Notes: a model not told the origin generated them from the letters alone. DNA of 55,639 bases from Candidatus Falkowbacteria bacterium (GCA_043798985.1 JAZDOE010000023.1:69626-125264); one strand, 5' to 3'. Positions 16,581 to 34,194 are shown, numbered from the stretch's first letter. A program made the numbers and translations.

Positions 16581-17872
16581 AAATATTCTTCCAGCCCTTC
16601 AACTTTAACAATATCTTGTTTCATTGTGTCTCTGTCCCGCACTGTCACCGTTCCTTTTTCCAAAGTATCAAAATCGATGGTCACGCAAAATGGCGTTCCG
16701 ATTTCATCTTGATAGCGATAACGTTTGCCAATATTACCGCGCTCATCCCAGAAAACCATATGATTTTTTTTCAACTCGCGACAAATTTCACGCGCTTTTT
16801 CAACCAATTTTTCTTTATTTGCCAACAATGGAAAGACGGCAACTTTATACGGCGCAACCGCTGGTTTTAATTTCAGCACCGTTCGCATATCACCATTTTC
16901 CAACGTTTCCTCAACATATGCCTCGCTCAAAATTGCGAGCAAGGTTCTGTCAACGCCAAACGTCGGCTCTATCACGTGCGCCAAATATCGTTCGTTGGTC
17001 TGCGCGTCAAAATATGTCAGATCAACGCCAGAATATTTTTGGTGATTACTCAAATCATAATCTCCGCGATAAGCAAGCCCCCACAATTCATCCTGCCCAA
17101 ACGGAAATTCATATTCCATGTCAATGGTTCGCTGCGAATAAAACGCGCGGTCTTTTTCACTGATTTCAACATCATGAAGTTTTTTCAAGTCCAAACCAAC
17201 TAAGTTGGCAAAACCATGCATATAATCTGCCCATTCTTCAAACTTTTTATTCCAATCACTTTTTGGATTTACAAAATATTCAATTTCCATTTGTTCAAAT
17301 TCCAGCGTGCGAAAAATCAGATTACCAGTTGTAATTTCATTGCGAAAAGCCTTGCCCATTTGCGCGATACCAAACGGAATTTTAACGTTTGTTGACTGTA
17401 AAACGTTTTTATAATCCACGAAAATATTCTGCGCTGTTTCTGGTCGCAGATAAGTCACTTCGCCCTGTTCCTCAATCGGACCAATCACTGTTTTAAACAT
17501 TCCGCTAAACATTTTGGGCTTAGTAAACTTGCCGCCGCAGTCAGGACATTTTGTTTCGTCAGCCAATTTGTCTGGCCGAAAACGTTTGTGACATTTCTTA
17601 CATTCAACCAATGCGTCTTTAAAATTTTTAATATGCCCGCTTGCCTCAAAAACCTTGGCTTTGGATAATATTGTACCATCAATACCAACCATATCATCGC
17701 GCTGCTGCACAACATACTGCCACCATTGCTGTTTAATATTATTTTTCAATTCAGCGCCGAGCGGACCATAATCATAAGTATTTGCCAGCCCACCATAAAT
17801 TTCCGAATTTGGAAACACAAAACCTCTGCGTTTGCACAAACTAACTATTTTTTCCATTCTGTCATCTGCCAT
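16562..17872 (-). CDS. glyS: Glycyl-tRNA synthetase, alpha2 (class IIA) type
   Basis: LCKRRGFVF, YDYGPLG, YLRPETAQ, GKAFRNEI, EFEQMEIE, VIEPTFGVDR, IGKRYRYQDEIGTP. Start set at ATG 17872; the longer ORF overlaps frr. Confidence 0.95.
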   Translation of the reverse strand: MADDRMEKIVSLCKRRGFVFPNSEIYGGLANTYDYGPLGAELKNNIKQQWWQYVVQQRDDMVGIDGTILSKAKVFEASGHIKNFKDALVECKKCHKRFRPDKLADETKCPDCGGKFTKPKMFSGMFKTVIGPIEEQGEVTYLRPETAQNIFVDYKNVLQSTNVKIPFGIAQMGKAFRNEITTGNLIFRTLEFEQMEIEYFVNPKSDWNKKFEEWADYMHGFANLVGLDLKKLHDVEISEKDRAFYSQRTIDMEYEFPFGQDELWGLAYRGDYDLSNHQKYSGVDLTYFDAQTNERYLAHVIEPTFGVDRTLLAILSEAYVEETLENGDMRTVLKLKPAVAPYKVAVFPLLANKEKLVEKAREICRELKKNHMVFWDERGNIGKRYRYQDEIGTPFCVTIDFDTLEKGTVTVRDRDTMKQDIVKVEGLEEYLCNKLK

Positions 17873-26806: not shown

Positions 26807-27316
26807 ATGCATCGCCACTTAATATCAATGATCGTTCTCATTGTTTTGTTCACTCTTGTTTTTTCGCTCGGCTTTTATTTTGGCACGAGCTACAAAAACG
26901 CAAAATACTATGACCAAGGATTTACCGCTGGTTTTGACAGCGCGATTAACTCACTTGCCCAAAACAACATAATCCCAATGCCGCAAGAAGCAGTAATCGC
27001 AAACGCAATTCTCAAACAAAAAAACAACGACCAATTTGTCGTTGAAGTCCTTCCAAATATTTTAATGCCAATTATCAATCCGCAGGATAAAATCAAAACG
27101 CTCAATATAGATTCCAGCACCACCTTTTGCAAAATCATTCAAAAAACAATTGAACAAGTAATGCAACAAACTCCAAAAAATCAGCCGCCAGTTATTTCAG
27201 AACAATCAACAGCGACAATTAAAGATTTTAGCGTTGGTCAAAAAATTCAGATCACAACAGCCAATGATATTTTCACAAATAACGCGCTGGTCGCGAAACA
27301 AATTTGTTTATATTAA
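26807..27316 (+). CDS. Hypothetical single-TM protein
   Basis: In-frame ATG 26807 downstream of TGtTATAAT; N-terminal TM; the longer ORF start overlaps the divergent gene. Confidence 0.65.
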   Translation: MHRHLISMIVLIVLFTLVFSLGFYFGTSYKNAKYYDQGFTAGFDSAINSLAQNNIIPMPQEAVIANAILKQKNNDQFVVEVLPNILMPIINPQDKIKTLNIDSSTTFCKIIQKTIEQVMQQTPKNQPPVISEQSTATIKDFSVGQKIQITTANDIFTNNALVAKQICLY

Positions 27317-28414
27317 TTCGTCCTTAATTTCTTTTAACAATTGGCGCGCTTTTCTGGATAATTTGCGCGGGATATCAACCTCAACTTCCACCAGCTGATC
27401 GCCGCGGGAATTGCCGTGTTTAACACCTTTGCCGCGCAACCGGAAAACCGCGCCCGCTTGCGTGCCTTCTGGAATTTGTAATTCAACCGTTCCGTCCACT
27501 GTTTCAACATCAATCACATCGCCTAACATCGCTTGAAAGGCGTTTATTTTTTTATGCGAAATAATATTCCAACCATCGCGTTCAAACTCGCGGCTTGGTT
27601 TTACAAAAACATTTACATACAACGAGCCAGCCCCACCGCTGGCCGCGTTGCCGTGGCCGGACAATTCCAACGTGTTGCCATTATCTACGCCAGCCGGAAT
27701 TTCAATTTTCAAATTCTGAACTTCATTAACAAAACCCCCAGCGGCGCAGCGTTTGCATTTTTTTTCTGGGATCTTTCCTGCGCCGCTGCATTTTTGGCAC
27801 GTCACGCTGGTTTGCATTGTCCCCAAAAAAGTTCTCTGCATTCGCGTCACTTGTCCGCGACCGCCGCATTCTGAACAATTGATAAACTTGCTACCATGCT
27901 CTTTTCCTTCGCCATTGCAAGCAGGACATAAAATTTTTCTGTTCAATTTTATTTCCCTGCTCGTTCCAAAAACAGCTTCTTTAAAATCAAGTTGCAAATC
28001 AATCGCAATATCTTCGCCTTGCCTCGCCGAAGGCCGCCCTCGGCGGCCGGAGGCAGGCCGATTAAACCCGAAAATATCACCAAAAATATCGCCGAGATCA
28101 ACACCGCCGAAGTCGAATCCACCCTGCCATGAGCCTGTCGAATGGCCGCGCGCCTGCCGCATAAAATCATCCCAGTTTATTCCTTGACCAAAACCGCCTT
28201 GCTGATCAAAAGTCGCGCCAAACTGGTCATACTGTTTGCGTTTGTCAGCATTGCCAAGAACTTGGTACGCTTCGTTGATTTCTTTAAACTTGGCTTCGTC
28301 TCCGCCTTGTTTGTCAGGATGATATTTGTGCGCCAGTTTGCGAAAAGCCTGCTTGATTTCATCAGCATTCGCGCCATTTTCAACTCCTAAAATTTTATAA
28401 TAATCTTTTGCCAT
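27308..28414 (-). CDS. dnaJ: Chaperone DnaJ
   Basis: KDYYKILGV, HPD, G/F-rich linker, four CxxCxGxG-like motifs. Confidence 0.97.
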   Translation of the reverse strand: MAKDYYKILGVENGANADEIKQAFRKLAHKYHPDKQGGDEAKFKEINEAYQVLGNADKRKQYDQFGATFDQQGGFGQGINWDDFMRQARGHSTGSWQGGFDFGGVDLGDIFGDIFGFNRPASGRRGRPSARQGEDIAIDLQLDFKEAVFGTSREIKLNRKILCPACNGEGKEHGSKFINCSECGGRGQVTRMQRTFLGTMQTSVTCQKCSGAGKIPEKKCKRCAAGGFVNEVQNLKIEIPAGVDNGNTLELSGHGNAASGGAGSLYVNVFVKPSREFERDGWNIISHKKINAFQAMLGDVIDVETVDGTVELQIPEGTQAGAVFRLRGKGVKHGNSRGDQLVEVEVDIPRKLSRKARQLLKEIKDELI

Positions 28415-28417
28415 AAT

Positions 28418-28446
28418 TTGACAGTGTGGATAACTTTTGCTACTCT
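28418..28446 (+). promoter_or_regulatory. Sigma70-type promoter antisense to the dnaK operon, with a DnaA-box match in its spacer
   Basis: TTGACA(28418-28423)-17 nt-TACTCT(28441-28446) preceded by TG; TGTGGATAA (TTATCCACA reversed) at 28425-28433. Confidence 0.5.
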
Positions 28447-28452
28447 TTAATT

Positions 28453-28515
28453 GGCACTTGTGAGGGCTTTGGCTCTCTCGCGGTTAATTCATAAACCGCA
28501 GACGAGTGCTTTTTT
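28453..28515 (+). ncRNA. Candidate ~60-nt structured small RNA
   Basis: Closing stem GGCACTTG/CGAGTGCT, inner hairpins GAGGGC/GCTCTC and GCGGTT/AACCGC, ending in T6; starts 6-7 nt after the -10 above. Confidence 0.35.
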
Positions 28516-28518
28516 AAT

Positions 28519-29016
28519 TTAGTCGCTTTCAGGATCTCCTGAAAAAAATTTCTTCTTTTTTTCGCCATTCGCATTTATCGTTACTTTCCATGACGGATAT
28601 AAACTATAAAAAAATTTGGAGCCGCCTTCAATTTCTTTTACGACAACTTTGATCCTTGCATTATCTATAATGGCAACGAATACATAATAATACACCGGCA
28701 TTAAGCGCGATTCCCACCGAGCATTACTTTTCTGCACATTAATTTTCTGCCGAACAAACATCTTTCGTTCATCAAATTCCTGCAAGGTGTGCGATTGTCT
28801 TAATATAAGGGGTGCGAGTCGTAACAATTTAAGACGATTATACTGTTCAATTTCAGATCTCGTTTTATTCCACTCTTTAAACAATAAATGCTCAAACCCG
28901 ACTCTGTTAAAATGCACTTCGTCCTGTAAATAAGGACATCTCACTGCGCCAATCTTAAAATATTCCTCTTCCGCGCGCGCCCGAAGTAGTTTAAATTTTT
29001 CCTTATCCACCTCCAT
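28519..29016 (-). CDS. Hypothetical protein, possible BECR (barnase/EndoU/colicin/RelE)-fold RNase
   Basis: 165 aa between dnaK and dnaJ; CPYL, FN..GFEHL, R..RL, terminal beta strands ending FFYSLYPSW. Fold call is recollected resemblance only. Confidence 0.55.
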   Translation of the reverse strand: MEVDKEKFKLLRARAEEEYFKIGAVRCPYLQDEVHFNRVGFEHLLFKEWNKTRSEIEQYNRLKLLRLAPLILRQSHTLQEFDERKMFVRQKINVQKSNARWESRLMPVYYYVFVAIIDNARIKVVVKEIEGGSKFFYSLYPSWKVTINANGEKKKKFFSGDPESD

Positions 29017-29027
29017 AATTCAAAACG

Positions 29028-30941
29028 TCATTTCTTTTCCTTAAAATCCCCTTCTTGCGCGCCATTTCCATCCTTCTTTGGCTCGTTGGCAGACTCGCCC
29101 GGCGAAGCCTTAGCAGAGTCGGAATACATTGCTTGCCCAGCTTTCATTGCAACCTGATTTATTTCTTCAAGCTTTTTCTTAATCGCGTCAAAATCAGAAC
29201 CATCTTTTATCTTTTTCAACTCCTCAACTTTTTCAGTCAACTCTTTTTTAATATCTGCTGGAATTTTAACCTGCCCTGAGCCTGTCGAAGGGTCGCTTGA
29301 CTCTTTTAACATTTTTTCCGTGGTATAAACGACTGTGTCTGCCTGATTCTTAATTTCAATCTGCTCCTTTTTCTTTTTATCTTCTTCAGCGTGCAAATCC
29401 GCGTCTTTTTTCATTTTTTCAATGTCATCTTTTGACAAACCAGTAGTGCTGGTAATCGTAATGTGCTGCTCTTTGTTTGTCGCCTTATCTTTTGCGCTTA
29501 CATTCAAAATGCCGTTGGCGTCAATATCAAATTTGACCTCAACTTGCGGCACTCCACGCGGCGCGTTTGGTATTCCGTCAAGCATAAACCGCCCCAAAGT
29601 TTTGTTGTCAGTCGCCATGCCGCGCTCACCTTGCAAAACATGAATTTCAACCGAAGTCTGACTGTCGGCCGCGGTTGAAAAAACCTGCGCGCGTGAAACA
29701 GGAATAGTCGTATTGCGGTCAATCAATTTTGTCATAACTCCACCCAAAGTTTCCAAACCCAATGACAATGGTGTGACGTCCAGCAACAAAATGTCCTTGA
29801 CTTCACCTTGCAAAACTCCGCCCTGAATTCCAGCGCCAATCGCAACGACTTCGTCAGGATTTACGCCAACATGCGGTTTCTTTTTAAAAAATTCTTCAAC
29901 TTTTCGCAAAACCAAAGGCATGCGCGTCATTCCGCCGACCATAACAACTTCTTCCAAATCCTCAACTTTCAAACCAGCGTCAGCCAGCGCTTTTTTGCAC
30001 GGCTCTAATGTCGCGTCAACCAAATCAGCGATCAATTCTTCCAATTTCGCGCGCGTCACCTTTTTGACCAAATGCACGGGATTGCCACCTTTATCCTGCG
30101 CGATAAACGGCTGATTGATTTCAGTTTCCATTGCGGTTGAAAGTTCAATCTTGGCTTTTTCCGCTGATTCTTTTATCCTTTGCAAAGCCATTTGATCTTT
30201 GCCCAAATCAAGTCCTGTTTCTTTTCTAAAATCAACAATGATCCAATCAATGATTCGTTTGTCAAAATCATCGCCGCCCAAATGCGTGTCGCCGTTTGTT
30301 GATTTTACCTCAACGGTGTCAGCCGCAATATCCAAAATTGAAATATCAAAAGTGCCGCCGCCGAGATCATAAACTGCTATTTGCTGGCCTTTCTTTTTAT
30401 CAAAGCCATAGGCCAGCGCGGCGGCGGTAGGTTCATTAATAATTCTGCGAACTTTCAACCCCGCGATTTCGCCGGCGTCTTTTGTGGCCTGCCGTTGCGC
30501 GTCATCAAAATACGCAGGCACAGTGATTATCGCTTCTTCAATTTTTTCGCCCAACCGATCTTCCGCGTCTTGTTTCATTTTTTGCAAAATCATTGAAGAA
30601 ATTTCTTGCGGCGTATATTCTTTGTCCGCCATTTTTACTTTTACGCCATTTCCGGCTTTCACCATTTCATACGGCAATGTTTTCAAATCGCGCTGAACTT
30701 CCGCGTCTTCCCATCTTCGGCCAATCAGGCGCTTCACTGAAAAAATCGTGTTTTTCGGATTCGTCACAGCCTGCCGTTTTGCGGACAAACCAACTAACCG
30801 CTCGCCTGTCTTTGAAATTGAAACGACTGACGGCGTTGTTCTCGCGCCTTCTTTATTTTCCAAAACTTTTGGCTGACCACCCTCAATGATCGCCATGCAA
30901 CTGTTTGTTGTTCCCAAATCAATCCCTAAGATTTTCGGCAT
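29028..30941 (-). CDS. dnaK: Chaperone DnaK
   Basis: [42 protein letters not shown]. Confidence 0.98.
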
Positions 30942-30949
30942 ATTTGTTA

Positions 30950-31070
30950 AAACTCGAAAACCGAAGCACTAAATCCGAAACAAATTCCAAATTCGAAATC
31001 AGAATATTTCAAACATTGGTACATTCTAATTTCGTGCTTGTTTAGGATTTCGATATTCGTATTTCGTATT
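30950..31070. repeat. 7-nt-periodic hairpin repeat between grpE and dnaK
   Basis: 30961-31000 is identical over 40 nt to the reverse complement of 10627-10666 inside lepA. Confidence 0.9.
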
Positions 31071-31072
31071 TA

Positions 31073-31618
31073 TTATGTGATTATTACCTTTGCTGCTTGC
31101 ACGACTTTTCCATGCAACTTATATCCGGGCTTTTTTTCTTCAACAATCAACCCACTTTCTTTTTCTGAACCTTCAACTTTTTCAATAGCCTCGTGAAACA
31201 TCGGATCAAACTTTTCTCCAACCGTTTTTATTTCCTCAACTCCATTTTCTTTTAAAAAATCTTCCAGCTGCTTCTTGATATGCGCGAAACCAACCATCCA
31301 CGCGCTGTTTTGTTCAGTAGCAGAAATCTTGCCGAACGCCAATTTAAAATTATCCAAAATCAACAAAAGCTCCAAAATCAAATTCTGATTCGCGAACTTC
31401 ACAAACTCCAATTTTTCTTTTGCAACATCTTTAACCAAATTTTGGTAATCTGCCATTGCCCGCTTCCAACCATTCAAATATTCCTCGCATCGCGAGCGTA
31501 GCGAAGCGATCTCATCAACTCCGTCATCGCTGTCACCCTGAGCCTGCTCGCCTTGGCATAGCCCCTCGGCGTAGCCAGGTCGAAGGGCGTCATTGTTATT
31601 TTTTTTGTCATCACCCAT
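31073..31618 (-). CDS. grpE: Nucleotide exchange factor GrpE
   Basis: WKRAMADYQN, LLLILDNF, GEKFDPMFHEA, GYKLHGKV. Confidence 0.95.
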   Translation of the reverse strand: MGDDKKNNNDALRPGYAEGLCQGEQAQGDSDDGVDEIASLRSRCEEYLNGWKRAMADYQNLVKDVAKEKLEFVKFANQNLILELLLILDNFKLAFGKISATEQNSAWMVGFAHIKKQLEDFLKENGVEEIKTVGEKFDPMFHEAIEKVEGSEKESGLIVEEKKPGYKLHGKVVQAAKVIIT

Positions 31619-31619
31619 A

Positions 31620-32324
31620 TTATTTTAATAATTTAACGCTTTCTTTTACCAACGCGTAATTTTTTTGATAATCCATGCGTTCTGGGCCGAGCAATCCAAT
31701 AATTCCTTTGAGCTCTCCGATTCTGTATTGAAAAACTATCAAAGTACACCCGCAACCAATCGGATTTTCATGCCCAATCAAAATTTCAGGCTCGTTAAAA
31801 TCTTTGTTTTCTAAATCTTTCAAACGCTTGTCCAGATGCTCAACAACAGCCGACAAATTAACAACCAATTCTTTGTTTTTAAATTCCGGCTGGCTGAAAA
31901 TATTGGCAAGGCCAGTATAATAATTATCGCATTCTGTAAACGTCACCATCACGCCTTGCTTTGAAAAATTGGCAATGGCTTTCGCGAAATTTTTTACTTT
32001 TATTTTATCGTCAACTTCTTCCTTTTTTATTTCTTCCAGAACAGTTGTCTCTTTTTTACTAAGCTCGCGCTCTTTATCTAAATAATTTTCAATATAAAAC
32101 TGGTAAGCTTTTTCAGTCGGAACGCGGCCGGCTGATGTGTGCGGCTGGAAAATAAAACCTTCGTTTTCAAGCGCGACCATTTCATTGCGAACAGTTGCTG
32201 GGCTGACTTTTTCTTTAATTTCCCCAACCAAAAAACCGGACGACAAAGGTTCGGCATTTTTAACAAATGTTTCAATAATTTTTTTCAAAAGTTTTTTCTG
32301 CCGCTCCGTTGGCATAGCCATCAA
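31620..32324 (-). CDS. hrcA: Heat-inducible repressor HrcA (short form)
   Basis: ERQKKLL, SPATVRNEM, QPHTSAGRVPT, GLLGPERMDY; 234 aa; downstream of CIRCE. Confidence 0.9.
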   Translation of the reverse strand: MMAMPTERQKKLLKKIIETFVKNAEPLSSGFLVGEIKEKVSPATVRNEMVALENEGFIFQPHTSAGRVPTEKAYQFYIENYLDKERELSKKETTVLEEIKKEEVDDKIKVKNFAKAIANFSKQGVMVTFTECDNYYTGLANIFSQPEFKNKELVVNLSAVVEHLDKRLKDLENKDFNEPEILIGHENPIGCGCTLIVFQYRIGELKGIIGLLGPERMDYQKNYALVKESVKLLK

Positions 32325-32440
32325 AAATTTCTAATTTTCAATTTCAAATTTTAAATGAATTTTTAAACCAAAATTTCAAAACATTCGAACATTCAGACAT
32401 TAAACATTGATTAAAAATTCAAAATTAGAAATTAAAAATT
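32325..32440. repeat. AT-rich 7-nt-periodic hairpin repeat (AAATTCA subtype) in the hrcA leader
   Basis: aattttcaatttcaaattttaaatgaattt...aacattgattaaaaattcaaaattagaaatt; same subtype as 53245-53360. Confidence 0.75.
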
Positions 32441-32450
32441 CTTTACTATT

Positions 32451-32479
32451 ATTCTATCAAACAAATTAGCACTCGTCAA
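32451..32479 (-). promoter_or_regulatory. Sigma70-type promoter of the hrcA operon
   Basis: TTGACG(32474-32479)-17-TAGAAT(32451-32456) with extended TG; overlapped by CIRCE. Confidence 0.7.
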
Positions 32480-32492
32480 TAGAGAGTGCTAA
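32466..32492. promoter_or_regulatory. CIRCE element (HrcA operator)
   Basis: Perfect TTAGCACTC-N9-GAGTGCTAA. Confidence 0.97.
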
Positions 32493-32514
32493 TTATCAAA
32501 ACGTTTGCGCCTTT

Positions 32515-34194
32515 TTATTTCACTTTCCCTCCCTTGAGCCAACCGACTTTGTCGGCAATTAAATTTGTTGTCAACGGCTCAACGCTAAAAACCAACTCTT
32601 GACCGGTCACAGAATCTTTGCCCGTTATCATAATATTTTTTACCAATTCCGCGTATGCGCCTTTTTGATCAGCCGTTGGAGTTAGACCAACTTCAAACGC
32701 GAATCCGAAATTTTGCGCGCCGGTAGGTATCTCTGAAATCTGCCAAACAACCCGGCGCGCCGTCTCATCAAATTCTAACGCGTCGCCAACTGTGACGTTA
32801 AATTTATCCAACCAGCTTACATTTTTCGCCAACGTTGCTTCAACCCGCACGTTTTCAACATTATTGATATCATTCACCGCGCCGACAAAAATCCAATATT
32901 TTGTTTCGGCGCCGATTTTTGGCGGCAATGGACCGCGGCCAAGTTGTTCTCCGAAATCAGTAAAATATCTTACGGCCGCGGTTAATCCCAAATTAGAACT
33001 CAATGGAATTGTTAGTTCAGAAGATGGCATTTCAACCGGCAATTTGCCTAAATTGTAAAAAACAATCAACCGCGCCTGCAAAATCGGCAAAGCGCCTGCA
33101 AAATATTTTTTGATTCCTATTTTCAACGGGATCTCGCCGTTTTCATTAGGTTGAATCAGCGCCAGCCGCGAAAAATCCTGCGCAGTAATTGTTTTGCTGG
33201 CCGCGCTCCAATAATCTCCCATCAATTCCAATTTAAATTTCACATCGCTCAAACTGGACTTGCCATTATTCGCGTACTTAATAACAAAATCAACCCCGCC
33301 GTTGGGCTGAACCAACTTGTTTTCGCGGCTCAACGTTGCAACAAAATTTGAATCAATCAATTCAATGGTTTTAGAAATCTTCGCGATTTCAATTTTCTTT
33401 CCTGCAATTTCGGTCAGCACAGAAACCTGCTGGTTGATCGTTTTATCGCCAGACAACGTCATTGCGCCCGAAATTTTTCGCGTTTCTTTTGCCTGCAAAT
33501 TATCAATTGTAAAGCTTTCATTCAACGCGGGTTGAACAAAAATTTTGTTCAATGGAATATTCAAACCATTTGTCACGCTAATTTCAAGATTCCACGCTTG
33601 CCCGTTCACAGCTTTGTCCGGAAAATTCGTAACCAACACCACATCACTCTTGCTGATTTTGTATTCAAACAAATATGGCGTTTGAAAAAGCCCCCAAAGT
33701 TTTTGCCCCTGCCTGTCTGTTTTATAATAATTCACATTAACAACCAAACGTTGCTTTTCAGCCAAACTGCCCCAGATTTCACCGTTTAACTCCAGCGAAC
33801 CGCCTGCTCCGGCTTTCAATTTACCAACATCCAAAAGGTTGTGTTCAAAATCATACTGCTTTTTGTTTGTCGTTTTCAAAACAAAACCTTGCGGCAATTT
33901 TATTGCGATGCTGAATTCATCCAAATCAAAATCATTTCCATTTTCGTAATTGATGACAAAAATATTTTCTTGGCCAACGGTAACACTTTCGTTTCGCAAT
34001 GAAATTTCAATATTCGTTTTATCAATCAAATAATGCAGCCCGCCAAAAACCCAAAACAACAGCATGCTGATTATTATCATCGCGGCGCCGAGAATTATCG
34101 CGTCCAAAGCCAGATGCTTTTTGTTAAATTTATATCTTATTTCCCATCGGCGTCGCCATTTTTCCATTAAATACCGCAAAAAATATTTTGCCAT
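32515..34194 (-). CDS. Membrane-anchored protein with probable Ig-like beta-sandwich domains
   Basis: 559 aa; one N-terminal TM; repeated beta-rich segments (e.g. FVINYENG, FVIKYANNG). Confidence 0.75.
   Translation of the reverse strand: MAKYFLRYLMEKWRRRWEIRYKFNKKHLALDAIILGAAMIIISMLLFWVFGGLHYLIDKTNIEISLRNESVTVGQENIFVINYENGNDFDLDEFSIAIKLPQGFVLKTTNKKQYDFEHNLLDVGKLKAGAGGSLELNGEIWGSLAEKQRLVVNVNYYKTDRQGQKLWGLFQTPYLFEYKISKSDVVLVTNFPDKAVNGQAWNLEISVTNGLNIPLNKIFVQPALNESFTIDNLQAKETRKISGAMTLSGDKTINQQVSVLTEIAGKKIEIAKISKTIELIDSNFVATLSRENKLVQPNGGVDFVIKYANNGKSSLSDVKFKLELMGDYWSAASKTITAQDFSRLALIQPNENGEIPLKIGIKKYFAGALPILQARLIVFYNLGKLPVEMPSSELTIPLSSNLGLTAAVRYFTDFGEQLGRGPLPPKIGAETKYWIFVGAVNDINNVENVRVEATLAKNVSWLDKFNVTVGDALEFDETARRVVWQISEIPTGAQNFGFAFEVGLTPTADQKGAYAELVKNIMITGKDSVTGQELVFSVEPLTTNLIADKVGWLKGGKVK

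What the first reader, a model, noticed from the sequence alone, without database searches (positions are those of the whole stretch)
31487..31587. GrpE N-terminus is a mosaic of three elements, one nested inside another
The element CCCTGAGCCT|GTCGAAGGG, intact in dnaK at 29274-29292, is split here (31536-31545 and 31579-31587) by a 33-nt in-frame insert (gctcgccttggcatagcccctcggcgtagccag). A CGTC-family fragment (gcatcgcgagcgtagcgaagcgatctc, 31487-31513, encoding EIASLRSR) lies nearby. Nesting gives an insertion order and suggests elements target existing hairpins.
Basis: seen in the sequence. Interest (0 to 1): 0.65.

Follow-up and report, generated by a model that had tools for sequence, protein, structure and literature searches.

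The report
Hairpin-repeat mosaic in GrpE tail
The start of the heat-shock gene grpE in this ultra-small groundwater bacterium is built from translated copies of small selfish DNA hairpins, but the "hairpin inside a hairpin" arrived as one ready-made unit, so this is a variant of a known kind of selfish DNA and not a new mechanism.

Summary
In grpE, CCCTGAGCCT and GTCGAAGGG flank 33 nt, and the uninterrupted 19-mer sits in dnaK.

The split 19-mer plus insert is not an event that happened in grpE. The same 59-nt composite, with the same junctions and a TGTCA head, also sits in frame in gatB and at the end of a glycosyltransferase gene (90-93% identity). The 33 nt occur nowhere else in this genome.

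The pieces belong to a TGTC/CGTC-tagged hairpin superfamily: outer stem, tandem GA, variable tip. The genome has about 60 copies, and the 23-nt core is letter-identical in more than 12 phyla.

The third piece (EIASLRSR) is a real, degenerate family member shared with one relative, so it is older. A fourth piece, CGTCATCGC, is the head of an element still intact in two relatives.

Five relatives show five different tails, two of them empty. None carries the bare 19-mer at this site.

The element-encoded residues lie in a predicted disordered tail.

Nesting is real at family level and tip insertion is plausible, but targeting of hairpins is not proven. The closest known relatives are CGTC-tagged REPs and Rickettsia palindromic elements.

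The parts
31073..31618 (-). grpE coding sequence (181 aa), directly after the hrcA stop codon
   Evidence: ORF list. PF01025 homologues named GrpE of Candidatus Falkowbacteria. The start codon is conserved relative to the hrcA stop in four relatives.
31490..31597 (-). 108-nt (36-codon) block of the N-terminal tail that is absent from the same-genus genome G001 (MGDEKKK|CEEYL)
31531..31589 (+). TGTC-tagged long hairpin element (the composite). It is antisense to grpE and is translated as ALRPGYAEGLCQGEQAQGD.
   Evidence: Three copies in the genome at 90-93% identity with the same junctions: grpE, gatB (C5:18747) and a glycosyltransferase C-terminus (C6:1742).
31536..31545 (+). 5' half of the 19-nt core: outer stem CCCT, GA, start of the tip
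31546..31578 (+). 33-nt inner module at the hairpin tip. It contains two GGCRTAGCC mini-palindromes.
   Evidence: In this genome it is found only inside the three composites. A related ~40-nt module sits inside an ATTGC-type outer hairpin in G001.
31579..31587 (+). 3' half of the 19-nt core: end of the tip, GA, outer stem AGGG
31522..31530 (+). CGTCATCGC: head and 5' stem of an older CGTC-tagged element. The rest of that element is replaced here by the composite.
   Evidence: It aligns with the head of an intact CGTCATTGCGAG...GGCAATC element at the same place in the contigs encoding P0002 and P0003. A near-identical element exists at C21:10756 in this genome.
31487..31513 (+). Degenerate CGTC/TGTC-family hairpin (ATCGC-GA-GCGTAGC-GA-A-GCGAT-CTC) with a spoiled tag, translated as EIASLRSR at the start of the long GrpE helix
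   Evidence: 5 mismatches to the canonical 26-mer, and only 2 genome hits within 6 mismatches. The orthologous copy in P0002 has compensatory ATTGC/GCAAT stems. The helix is predicted to start at residue 32.
31588..31595 (+). Second CGTCATTG motif, directly 3' of the composite. Unexplained: it could be a duplicated target or a remnant of another head.
   Evidence: Read directly from the sequence. The other two composite copies have no such flanking repeat.
29269..29292 (+). Short-form copy in dnaK: a clean 24-nt in-frame insertion (ACCTG plus the 19-mer), translated as PSTGSGQV
   Evidence: The empty site is seen in G001, G019 and G015. The same codon is filled in G025, with a compensatory CCCC/GGGG stem.
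28123..28145 (+). Short-form copy in the dnaJ G/F region (CCTG plus a 2-mismatch 19-mer), translated as HSTGSWQ
   Evidence: G025 has PSTGSGQ at the same site.

Best explanation
The GrpE N-terminal tail of this Candidatus Falkowbacteria genome is a tolerated landing site for small GC-rich hairpin repeats of the CGTC/TGTC-tagged palindromic repeat (REP) kind. These are the same kind as the in-frame Rickettsia palindromic elements.

Shown:
1. The repeats share one architecture: a (T/C)GTC-A tag, a 4-5 bp outer stem, tandem G-A pairs, a variable tip, G-A, and the return stem.
2. The split 19-mer plus the 33 nt is one 59-nt long-form member. It exists as a unit in three genes.
3. It lies antisense to grpE and is translated within a predicted disordered segment (residues 1-29).
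4. It abuts the head of an older CGTC element that is intact in two relatives. A second, older, degenerate family hairpin encodes EIASLRSR.
5. Close relatives carry five different tails, two of them without any element.

Inferred:
- The long form arose once, when a small palindromic module was added at the tip of a short-form hairpin. The composite was then copied as a unit.
- It replaced most of the older element in grpE.
- Only frame-preserving outcomes survive in essential genes.
- Copying probably uses single-stranded hairpin DNA at replication forks, catalysed by an enzyme not yet identified. Candidates in this genome are a GIY-YIG cassette bracketed by the same hairpins and a RAYT-like (REP-associated tyrosine transposase) Y1 transposase.
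- The insert has no role in GrpE function.
For: - Coordinates and non-chance status.
- Composite at three loci with identical junctions.
- All three copies are in frame in ORFs: gatB in sense gives CHPEPARLGEASRRSQVEGP; the glycosyltransferase in antisense gives ALRPGYAERLRQGEEPQGDKLS*; grpE in antisense gives ALRPGYAEGLCQGEQAQGD.
- The 33 nt are absent outside the composites.
- Family architecture and tag: 62 of 155 TGTC-A-N4-GA sites have the complementary GA partner, against 2-10% for control tags. Six different outer-stem sequences each carry their own complement.
- Empty and filled sites: the dnaK copy is a clean 24-nt insertion.
- Hairpin-3 is significantly similar to a family member.
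- Disordered tail: pLDDT (AlphaFold's per-residue confidence) is below 50 for residues 1-29.
- Other Patescibacteria grpE tails also hold such inserts. L207 has three tandem TGTCA heads, also antisense.
- Literature: CGTC tags are often TGTC; intragenic REPs occur; RPE-4 and RPE-6 are CGTC types; no dedicated transposase is known; REPs are found inside palindromes.
Against: - No insertion event was observed directly. No relative has the composite's exact empty site within an otherwise identical tail, so the boundaries are uncertain: the shared unit is 59 nt, and an apparent swap of 58 nt in for 22 nt out gives a net +36.
- Hairpin stability is no better than that of shuffled sequence (z about -1), so the structure rests on covariation alone.
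- The four close relatives are about equally distant (85-91% identity in the core). The order of gains and losses in the tail therefore cannot be rooted.
- Hairpin-3 shared by G000 and P0002 conflicts with P0003 looking ancestral in that segment.
- No mobilising enzyme is tied to the family. The RAYT-like gene is flanked by GTAG palindromes, not TGTC ones. Only 3 of 119 loci from other phyla have a GIY-YIG gene nearby.
Confidence: 0.7

Rival explanations
1. In-situ nesting. A 19-nt element inserted into grpE first, and the 33-nt element later inserted into its loop at this locus.
For: The 33 nt sit exactly at the tip of the short hairpin, in frame. An uninterrupted 19-mer exists 2.2 kb away in dnaK.
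Against: The same outer and inner combination, with the same junctions, occurs in gatB and in a glycosyltransferase gene. The 33 nt occur nowhere alone. Five relatives' tails include no single-element state.
Confidence: 0.07
2. The long form is ancestral, and the short 19-24-nt forms are deletion derivatives produced by palindrome excision. On this reading 'nesting' is an illusion.
For: Palindromes are deletion-prone (general knowledge). Short direct repeats of 1-2 nt flank the inner modules.
Against: The short core is identical across more than 12 phyla and across 10 of 26 genomes of the order. This long composite was found only in this genome among 61 relatives. Other genomes combine the same outer hairpin with different inner modules.
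Confidence: 0.08
3. The hairpins are functional cis-elements of the heat-shock operon, such as an mRNA stability or thermosensor signal, and not selfish DNA. This would explain why grpE, dnaK and dnaJ all carry the core.
For: 3 of 16 clean copies lie within the 5-kb hrcA-dnaJ operon (Poisson P about 2e-4). G025 also has copies in both dnaK and dnaJ at the same codons.
Against: - The same-genus G001 lacks the grpE and dnaK copies.
- The same core sits in unrelated genes (gatB, a glycosyltransferase, a membrane protein, a possible D-aminoacyl-tRNA deacylase gene, and an unidentified 810-aa ORF) and between genes in many phyla.
- There is no thermodynamic signal and no Rfam match.
Confidence: 0.07
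4. Turnover is by gene conversion between dispersed copies and not by transposition. Once any element occupies a site, it is overwritten from other copies, giving different elements at the same codon in different lineages.
For: - Different elements occupy the same site in grpE (G000 versus P0002 and P0003) and in gatB (an intact composite in G000 versus a roughly 50%-identical decayed insert in G001).
- There is a concerted ATCGC versus ATTGC difference in all three arms between G000 and P0002.
Against: Shared homology between different subfamilies is only about 10 nt. This does not explain first arrivals such as the clean 24-nt dnaK insertion. It complements the main explanation more than it excludes it.
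Confidence: 0.08

Closest known systems
CGTC-tagged palindromic repeats (CGTC REP superfamily; Di Nocera, De Gregorio & Rocco 2013, PMC3733652)
   Same: - One end carries a CGTC tag that is often TGTC.
- The first stem bases are A-T in the sibling subfamilies.
- Copies are dispersed and numerous, and some lie inside known genes.
- No dedicated transposase is known.
- REPs nested in other palindromes are reported.
   Different: - The stems here are 4-5 bp interrupted by tandem G-A pairs, not 8-9 bp perfect.
- The tip is modular and can be 5 nt or more than 40 nt.
- Paired siblings are tail-to-tail, not head-to-head.
- The host is a 0.75-Mb Patescibacteria genome, a phylum not covered by that survey.
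Rickettsia palindromic elements (RPE; Ogata et al. 2000, from my own knowledge; RPE-4 and RPE-6 are equated with CGTC families in PMC3733652)
   Same: Palindromic repeats inserted in frame into housekeeping genes and translated, in a reduced genome. The inserts sit in regions the protein tolerates.
   Different: The classic RPE-1 is 100-150 bp, whereas these elements are 24-60 nt. I did not test sequence relatedness to the RPE consensus sequences. Nested long and short forms, and same-site turnover, are not features I know from RPEs.
REP/REPIN-RAYT systems (GTAG-tagged REPs with a Y1 transposase)
   Same: Hairpin repeats with a conserved unpaired tag, probably handled as single-stranded DNA. 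This genome does encode a RAYT-like Y1 transposase (PF01797, 30.8 bits).
   Different: That gene is flanked by GTAGAGACG...CGTCTCTAC palindromes, a different family. The grpE elements carry TGTC/CGTC tags and are not linked to it.
Coxiella burnetii MITEs that insert in frame (PMC5896051; title and abstract only)
   Same: Small non-autonomous palindromic elements that alter protein-coding sequences in a reduced genome.
   Different: I did not read this paper in full. MITEs have terminal inverted repeats and target-site duplications, and neither was seen here.

Membership tests
CGTC-tagged REP superfamily (Di Nocera 2013) | Unpaired CGTC (or TGTC/CCTC) tag at one end | tested here: met
   The composite has TGTC at 31531-31534 and the older remnant has CGTC at 31522-31525. 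The tag is strongly enriched genome-wide. It is not met by the 27-nt hairpin (TCGC) or by the dnaK and dnaJ copies (CCTG head).
CGTC-tagged REP superfamily (Di Nocera 2013) | Stem of 8-9 bp starting with A-T, and a loop of 4-5 nt | tested here: inconclusive
   Here the outer stem is 4-5 bp, followed by tandem GA and an inner stem. The stem starts AC in this subfamily and AT in the siblings. The short form has a 5-nt loop, while the long form has a tip of about 40 nt.
CGTC-tagged REP superfamily (Di Nocera 2013) | Many dispersed copies, commonly as head-to-head dimers | tested here: inconclusive
   About 60 tagged copies are present. However, the ATTTC and ATTCC siblings pair tail-to-tail, and the CCCT/TCCT type is mostly solitary.
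Rickettsia palindromic elements | In-frame insertion into protein genes, leaving the protein intact and sitting in a tolerated region | tested here: met
   The elements are in frame in grpE, gatB, dnaK, dnaJ and a glycosyltransferase. The grpE insert lies in the segment with pLDDT below 50.
Rickettsia palindromic elements | Sequence similarity to an RPE consensus | not tested
   No RPE consensus was at hand. The only pointers are that PMC3733652 equates RPE-4 and RPE-6 with CGTC families, and that two records labelled Rickettsiales or Rickettsia carry the exact core.
REP/RAYT (REPIN) system | GTAG tag, and the same repeats flanking the RAYT gene | tested here: not met
   The RAYT-like ORF at G000:C4:63165-63737 is flanked by GTAGAGACG palindromes, not by TGTC hairpins.
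MITE | Target-site duplication at the insertion borders | tested here: not met
   The clean dnaK insertion and the gatB and glycosyltransferase copies show no duplication. Only grpE has CGTCATYG on both sides.

The most novel reading that the evidence does not exclude
Hairpin repeats of Patescibacteria, and of many other phyla, may grow and turn over by integrating into the tips or heads of pre-existing hairpins. This would give 'Russian-doll' composites that then spread as units. It would also make a few codons of essential genes (the GrpE tail, a DnaK lid loop, the DnaJ G/F region, a GatB linker) recurrent hot spots across families.

The process would be strand-specific and linked to replication. 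It might be driven by the small GIY-YIG cassettes that are bracketed by the same hairpins. That would amount to a hairpin-homing mobile system with no described counterpart.
Probability: 0.18. Interest if true: 0.7.

Novelty: new variant of a known kind. Interest (0 to 1): 0.42.

Why it matters
- It shows that the smallest known bacterial genomes still carry active-looking selfish hairpin DNA inside essential chaperone and translation genes.
- The same 23-nt hairpin core is shared letter for letter across many phyla.
- These hairpins are modular: the base is conserved and the tip is exchangeable.
- For annotation, GC-rich peptides such as ALRPGYAE..., PSTGSGQ and CHPEP... in Patescibacteria proteins are repeat-derived. 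They should not be read as functional motifs.
- The same-site recurrence and the strand bias give a concrete handle for finding the unknown enzyme that moves CGTC-type repeats, a question left open since 2013.

Tried and rejected
- Rfam scan of 27000-33000 at E up to 1: no relevant family.
- Single-sequence folding of the composite, the 27-nt hairpin, and the dnaK and dnaJ copies, on both strands: z-scores of -0.3 to -1.1, so thermodynamics alone gives no support.
- Target-site duplications: none at the gatB, glycosyltransferase or dnaK copies.
- RAYT as the mobiliser: its flanking repeats belong to a different (GTAG) family.
- GIY-YIG association: one bracketed cassette in this genome, and one in an Eremiobacterota locus. 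However, only 3 of 119 loci from other phyla have such a gene nearby, and my profile was built from this genome only.
- Search for closer relatives in JGI metagenome contigs: the best hit was 68% identical, so no new tail states came from it.
- Literature searches for REP-like or in-frame palindromes in Patescibacteria or the candidate phyla radiation: nothing relevant.
- Rooting the order of events in the tail: the four close GrpE sequences are 85-91% identical to each other in a star-like pattern.
- Assembly artefact: rejected, because the frame is kept, three in-frame copies exist, and an identical contig occurs in run X1.

Full report
**Setting**

The window is contig C4:69626-125264 of a 752,599-base, 42% G+C genome in 23 contigs. 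Sources name its GrpE relatives as Candidatus Falkowbacteria / Patescibacteria. On the minus strand lie hrcA (31620-32324), grpE (31073-31618, 181 aa), dnaK (29028-30941), a 165-aa ORF, and dnaJ (27308-28414).

**1. The observation**

None is expected by chance: 0 of 100 shuffles gave a match for each pattern. The 19-mer has a third, 2-mismatch copy in dnaJ at 28127-28145. A 169-nt contig of a public drinking-water metagenome run is identical over 31462-31630, though that run may be the source sample.

**2. What the pieces are**

*The repeat family.*
- The genome carries a superfamily of hairpin repeats with a common plan: a (T/C)GTC-A tag, a 4-5 bp outer stem, G-A, a variable inner hairpin, G-A, and the complementary stem.
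- Of 155 sites reading TGTC-A-NNNN-GA, 62 (40%) have the complementary partner within 80 nt. Control tags give 2-10%.
- Six different outer stems (ATTTC, ATTCC, ACCCT, ATCCT, ATGCT, ATTGC) each come with their own complement. This covariation supports the pairing.
- Folding energies alone do not support the structure (z about -1), and Rfam has no match.
- The 23-nt string GTCAYCCTGAGCYTGTCGAAGGR occurs letter for letter in at least 119 loci. The loci come from Nitrospirota, Bacteroidota, Eremiobacterota, Verrucomicrobiota, Acidobacteriota, Chloroflexota, Spirochaetota, Rickettsiales, Patescibacteria and other groups.

*The 'nested' composite is one unit.*
- The outer halves plus the 33 nt, with the TGTCA tag and the same junctions, recur at C5:18747 (93% identity) and C6:1742 (90%).
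- All three copies lie in frame in genes:
  - gatB, sense, giving CHPEPARLGEASRRSQVEGP;
  - the C-terminus of a glycosyltransferase, antisense, giving ALRPGYAERLRQGEEPQGDKLS*;
  - grpE, antisense, giving ALRPGYAEGLCQGEQAQGD.
- The copies differ mainly in the loops of two GGC-NNN-GCC mini-palindromes.
- In this genome the 33 nt occur only inside these three composites.
- So the nesting did not happen in grpE. The composite was copied there whole.

*Family-level polarity.*
- The short core spans phyla and is present in 10 of 26 genomes of the order. This composite is found only in this genome among the 61 searched.
- In the same-genus genome G001, a related ~40-nt module sits in the tip of a different (ATTGC) outer hairpin. 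In G003 the ACCCT outer hairpin holds yet another inner module.
- Long forms therefore derive from short ones by addition at the tip, and outer and inner parts combine independently.
- Other nested composites exist in this genome. The palindrome CCTGCCTGCCGGCAGGCAGG has 7 free copies and 3 at one fixed point inside ATTCC-type hairpins. Two further modules sit next to the loop of ATTTC-type hairpins.
- Di Nocera et al. already report REPs lying inside other palindromes.

*The third piece (31487-31513, EIASLRSR).*
- It has the family plan exactly: ATCGC-GA-GCGTAGC-GA-A-GCGAT-CTC.
- It has 5 mismatches to a canonical 26-mer that I took from a relative's contig.
- Only one other site in the genome matches that 26-mer within 6 mismatches: a bona fide TGTC-tagged copy at C18:25586 that shares the GCGTAGC tip. 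By my estimate from uniform base composition, about 0.006 such hits are expected by chance. Simulated genomes gave 0-2 hits even at 7 mismatches.
- Its tag is spoiled (TCGC) because it overlaps the conserved Cys-Glu codons.
- The piece is also orthologous to a copy in the contig encoding P0002, which has ATTGC/GCAAT where G000 has ATCGC/GCGAT, a compensatory change. It is thus older than the composite.
- It encodes the start of the long GrpE helix, which the model starts at residue 32.

*A fourth piece.*
- CGTCATCGC (31522-31530), directly 5' of the composite's tag, aligns with the head of an intact element at the same place in the P0002 and P0003 contigs: CGTCATTGCGAG(G/C)...GGCAATC.
- That element is nearly identical to C21:10756 in this genome.
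- In G000 its loop and 3' stem are gone and the composite stands in their place: about 58 nt in and 22 nt out, a net gain of 36 nt.

**3. Relatives**

Five tail states exist among close relatives, whose GrpE cores are 85-91% identical to each other:

| Source | Tail state |
|---|---|
| G001 (same genus) | MGDEKKK\|CEEYL, no element |
| Relatives in groundwater runs X2 and X3 | MKDKEDLEKK\|CEE, no element |
| P0003 | one CGTC element |
| P0002 | that element plus the 27-nt hairpin |
| G000 (this genome) | the 27-nt hairpin, the CGTC head, and the composite |

- No relative has the bare 19-mer at this site.
- More distant relatives have Lys/Glu/Asp-rich tails ending in ...NELEELKKKCEEYL.
But the predicted series of empty, single and nested states is not found either.

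*Other sites show the same behaviour.*
- dnaK: the copy is a clean 24-nt insertion (29269-29292). It is absent from G001, G019 and G015. It is present at the identical codon in G025, a different family, with a compensatory CCCC/GGGG stem.
- dnaJ: G000 reads HSTGSWQ where G025 reads PSTGSGQ.
- These copies carry a CCTG head instead of TGTCA. In the PSTGSGQ reading frame this removes the TGA codon that the tag would supply.
- gatB: G001 has a decayed insert, about 50% identical, exactly where G000 has the intact composite. Outgroups have a short native linker there.
- Among 80 other Patescibacteria grpE loci, by my reading about 6-8 tails hold GC-rich inserts. One of them (L207) has three tandem TGTCA heads, also antisense.

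**4. How it most likely works**

*Shown.*
- The repeats are dispersed copies. Filled and empty sites exist, the inserts are translated, and the grpE insert lies in a segment with pLDDT below 50 (residues 1-29).
- G001 and the X2/X3 relatives lack the whole element-bearing tail. The tail therefore appears dispensable for the element-derived part.

*Inferred.*
- The elements are selfish or neutral DNA.
- In essential genes only frame-preserving outcomes in floppy regions survive, which produces apparent hot spots.
- Composites arise rarely by addition at a hairpin tip and then spread as units.
- Occupied sites turn over, either by further insertion or by conversion from other copies.

*Hint of a strand-specific, replication-linked step.* By my tally of the 16 clean copies against contig GC skew, 12 have the TGTCA strand on the C-rich strand, 2 have it on the G-rich strand, and 2 lie on a contig without clear skew. 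This is confounded with the antisense-to-gene bias (10 antisense to 3 sense).

*The enzyme is unknown.*
- The genome encodes a RAYT-like Y1 transposase, but it is flanked by GTAG-type palindromes.
- The genome has 11 small GIY-YIG ORFs. One of them (C21:16615-16836) is bracketed by two inverted copies of this very subfamily, and the same arrangement occurs in an Eremiobacterota locus.
- However, only 3 of 119 loci from other phyla have a GIY-YIG gene nearby.

**5. Comparison with known systems**

- The closest described class is the CGTC-tagged REP superfamily. Its tag is often TGTC, intragenic copies are known, no dedicated transposase is known, and RPE-4 and RPE-6 belong to it.
- These elements differ from it in four ways: stems interrupted by G-A pairs, a modular tip, tail-to-tail pairing of siblings, and the host phylum.
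- In effect they behave like Rickettsia palindromic elements.
- They are not REP/RAYT REPINs, because the tag and the transposase flanks are wrong. They are not MITEs, because there is no target-site duplication.

**6. Verdict**

It has four pieces, not three.
- The nesting is a property of a pre-formed long-form element. It is not a record of successive insertions in grpE.
- An order of events can still be read. The 27-nt hairpin and the CGTC element came first, since they are shared with relatives. The composite came last, since it is specific to this genome.
- That elements seek out hairpins is plausible but unproven.
- This is a new variant of a known kind of selfish repeat, of moderate interest. 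The most intriguing loose ends are:
  - the recurrence at identical codons across families;
  - the clustering of three copies in one 5-kb operon (P about 2e-4);
  - the concerted ATCGC versus ATTGC difference in three arms between orthologous tails.

Noticed in passing
G000:C4:63165-63737 (about 6 kb upstream of the window start): A 190-aa open frame matches Y1_Tnp/PF01797 at 30.8 bits and carries HxH and RFYDR motifs. It is flanked on both sides by GTAGAGACG...CGTCTCTAC palindromes. GTAGAGACGAGA is the most frequent GC-rich 12-mer in the genome (23 copies). This looks like a REP/RAYT system in a 0.75-Mb genome.
   Followed up: partly
G000:C21:16526-16881: A small GIY-YIG ORF (16615-16836, minus strand) is bracketed by two inverted copies of the same hairpin subfamily as the grpE and dnaK element. 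The genome holds 11 GIY-YIG ORFs. The same bracketed arrangement occurs in an Eremiobacterota locus (L078).
   Followed up: partly
window 27308-32324: Three of the 16 clean copies of the CCCT/TCCT hairpin subfamily lie in the hrcA-grpE-dnaK-dnaJ operon, all in the same orientation (Poisson P about 2e-4). G025 also carries copies in both dnaK and dnaJ, at the same codons.
   Followed up: partly
window 31487-31530 versus L031 (P0002 contig): All three arms differ in concert between the orthologous tails: ATCGC, GCGAT, ATCGC in G000, against ATTGC, GCAAT, ATTGC in P0002. This suggests either conversion between neighbouring elements or selection to keep the pairing.
   Followed up: no
whole genome (contigs C3-C6, C11, C14 and others): 14 of the 16 clean copies lie on the plus strand of their contigs. 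By my tally against contig GC skew, 12 have the TGTCA strand on the C-rich strand and 2 on the G-rich strand. This is confounded with gene orientation.
   Followed up: partly
L002:2056-2694 (G001 dnaK): G001 DnaK has its own GC-rich insert, GQSARGGSAKGG, where G000 reads DKKK in the nucleotide-binding domain. The two genomes of the genus carry different insertions in the same gene.
   Followed up: no
window 28415-29027 versus G001:C25:1296-1406: The 165-aa ORF between dnaK and dnaJ is missing in G001, where the two genes are only about 110 nt apart.
   Followed up: no
window about 31334 (run X3, loose end): A relative's contig begins with a canonical element, GTCATTGCGAGCGAAGCGCGGCAATCTCG, and then matches the window from 31334 inside the grpE body. 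This suggests a further element insertion in the loop after the long helix in that relative.
   Followed up: no
L207 (JGI contig Ga0209343_10201784): A distant Patescibacteria grpE (52% identity) has a 62-aa tail containing three tandem TGTCA(T/C)CCTGAG heads, antisense to the gene.
   Followed up: no
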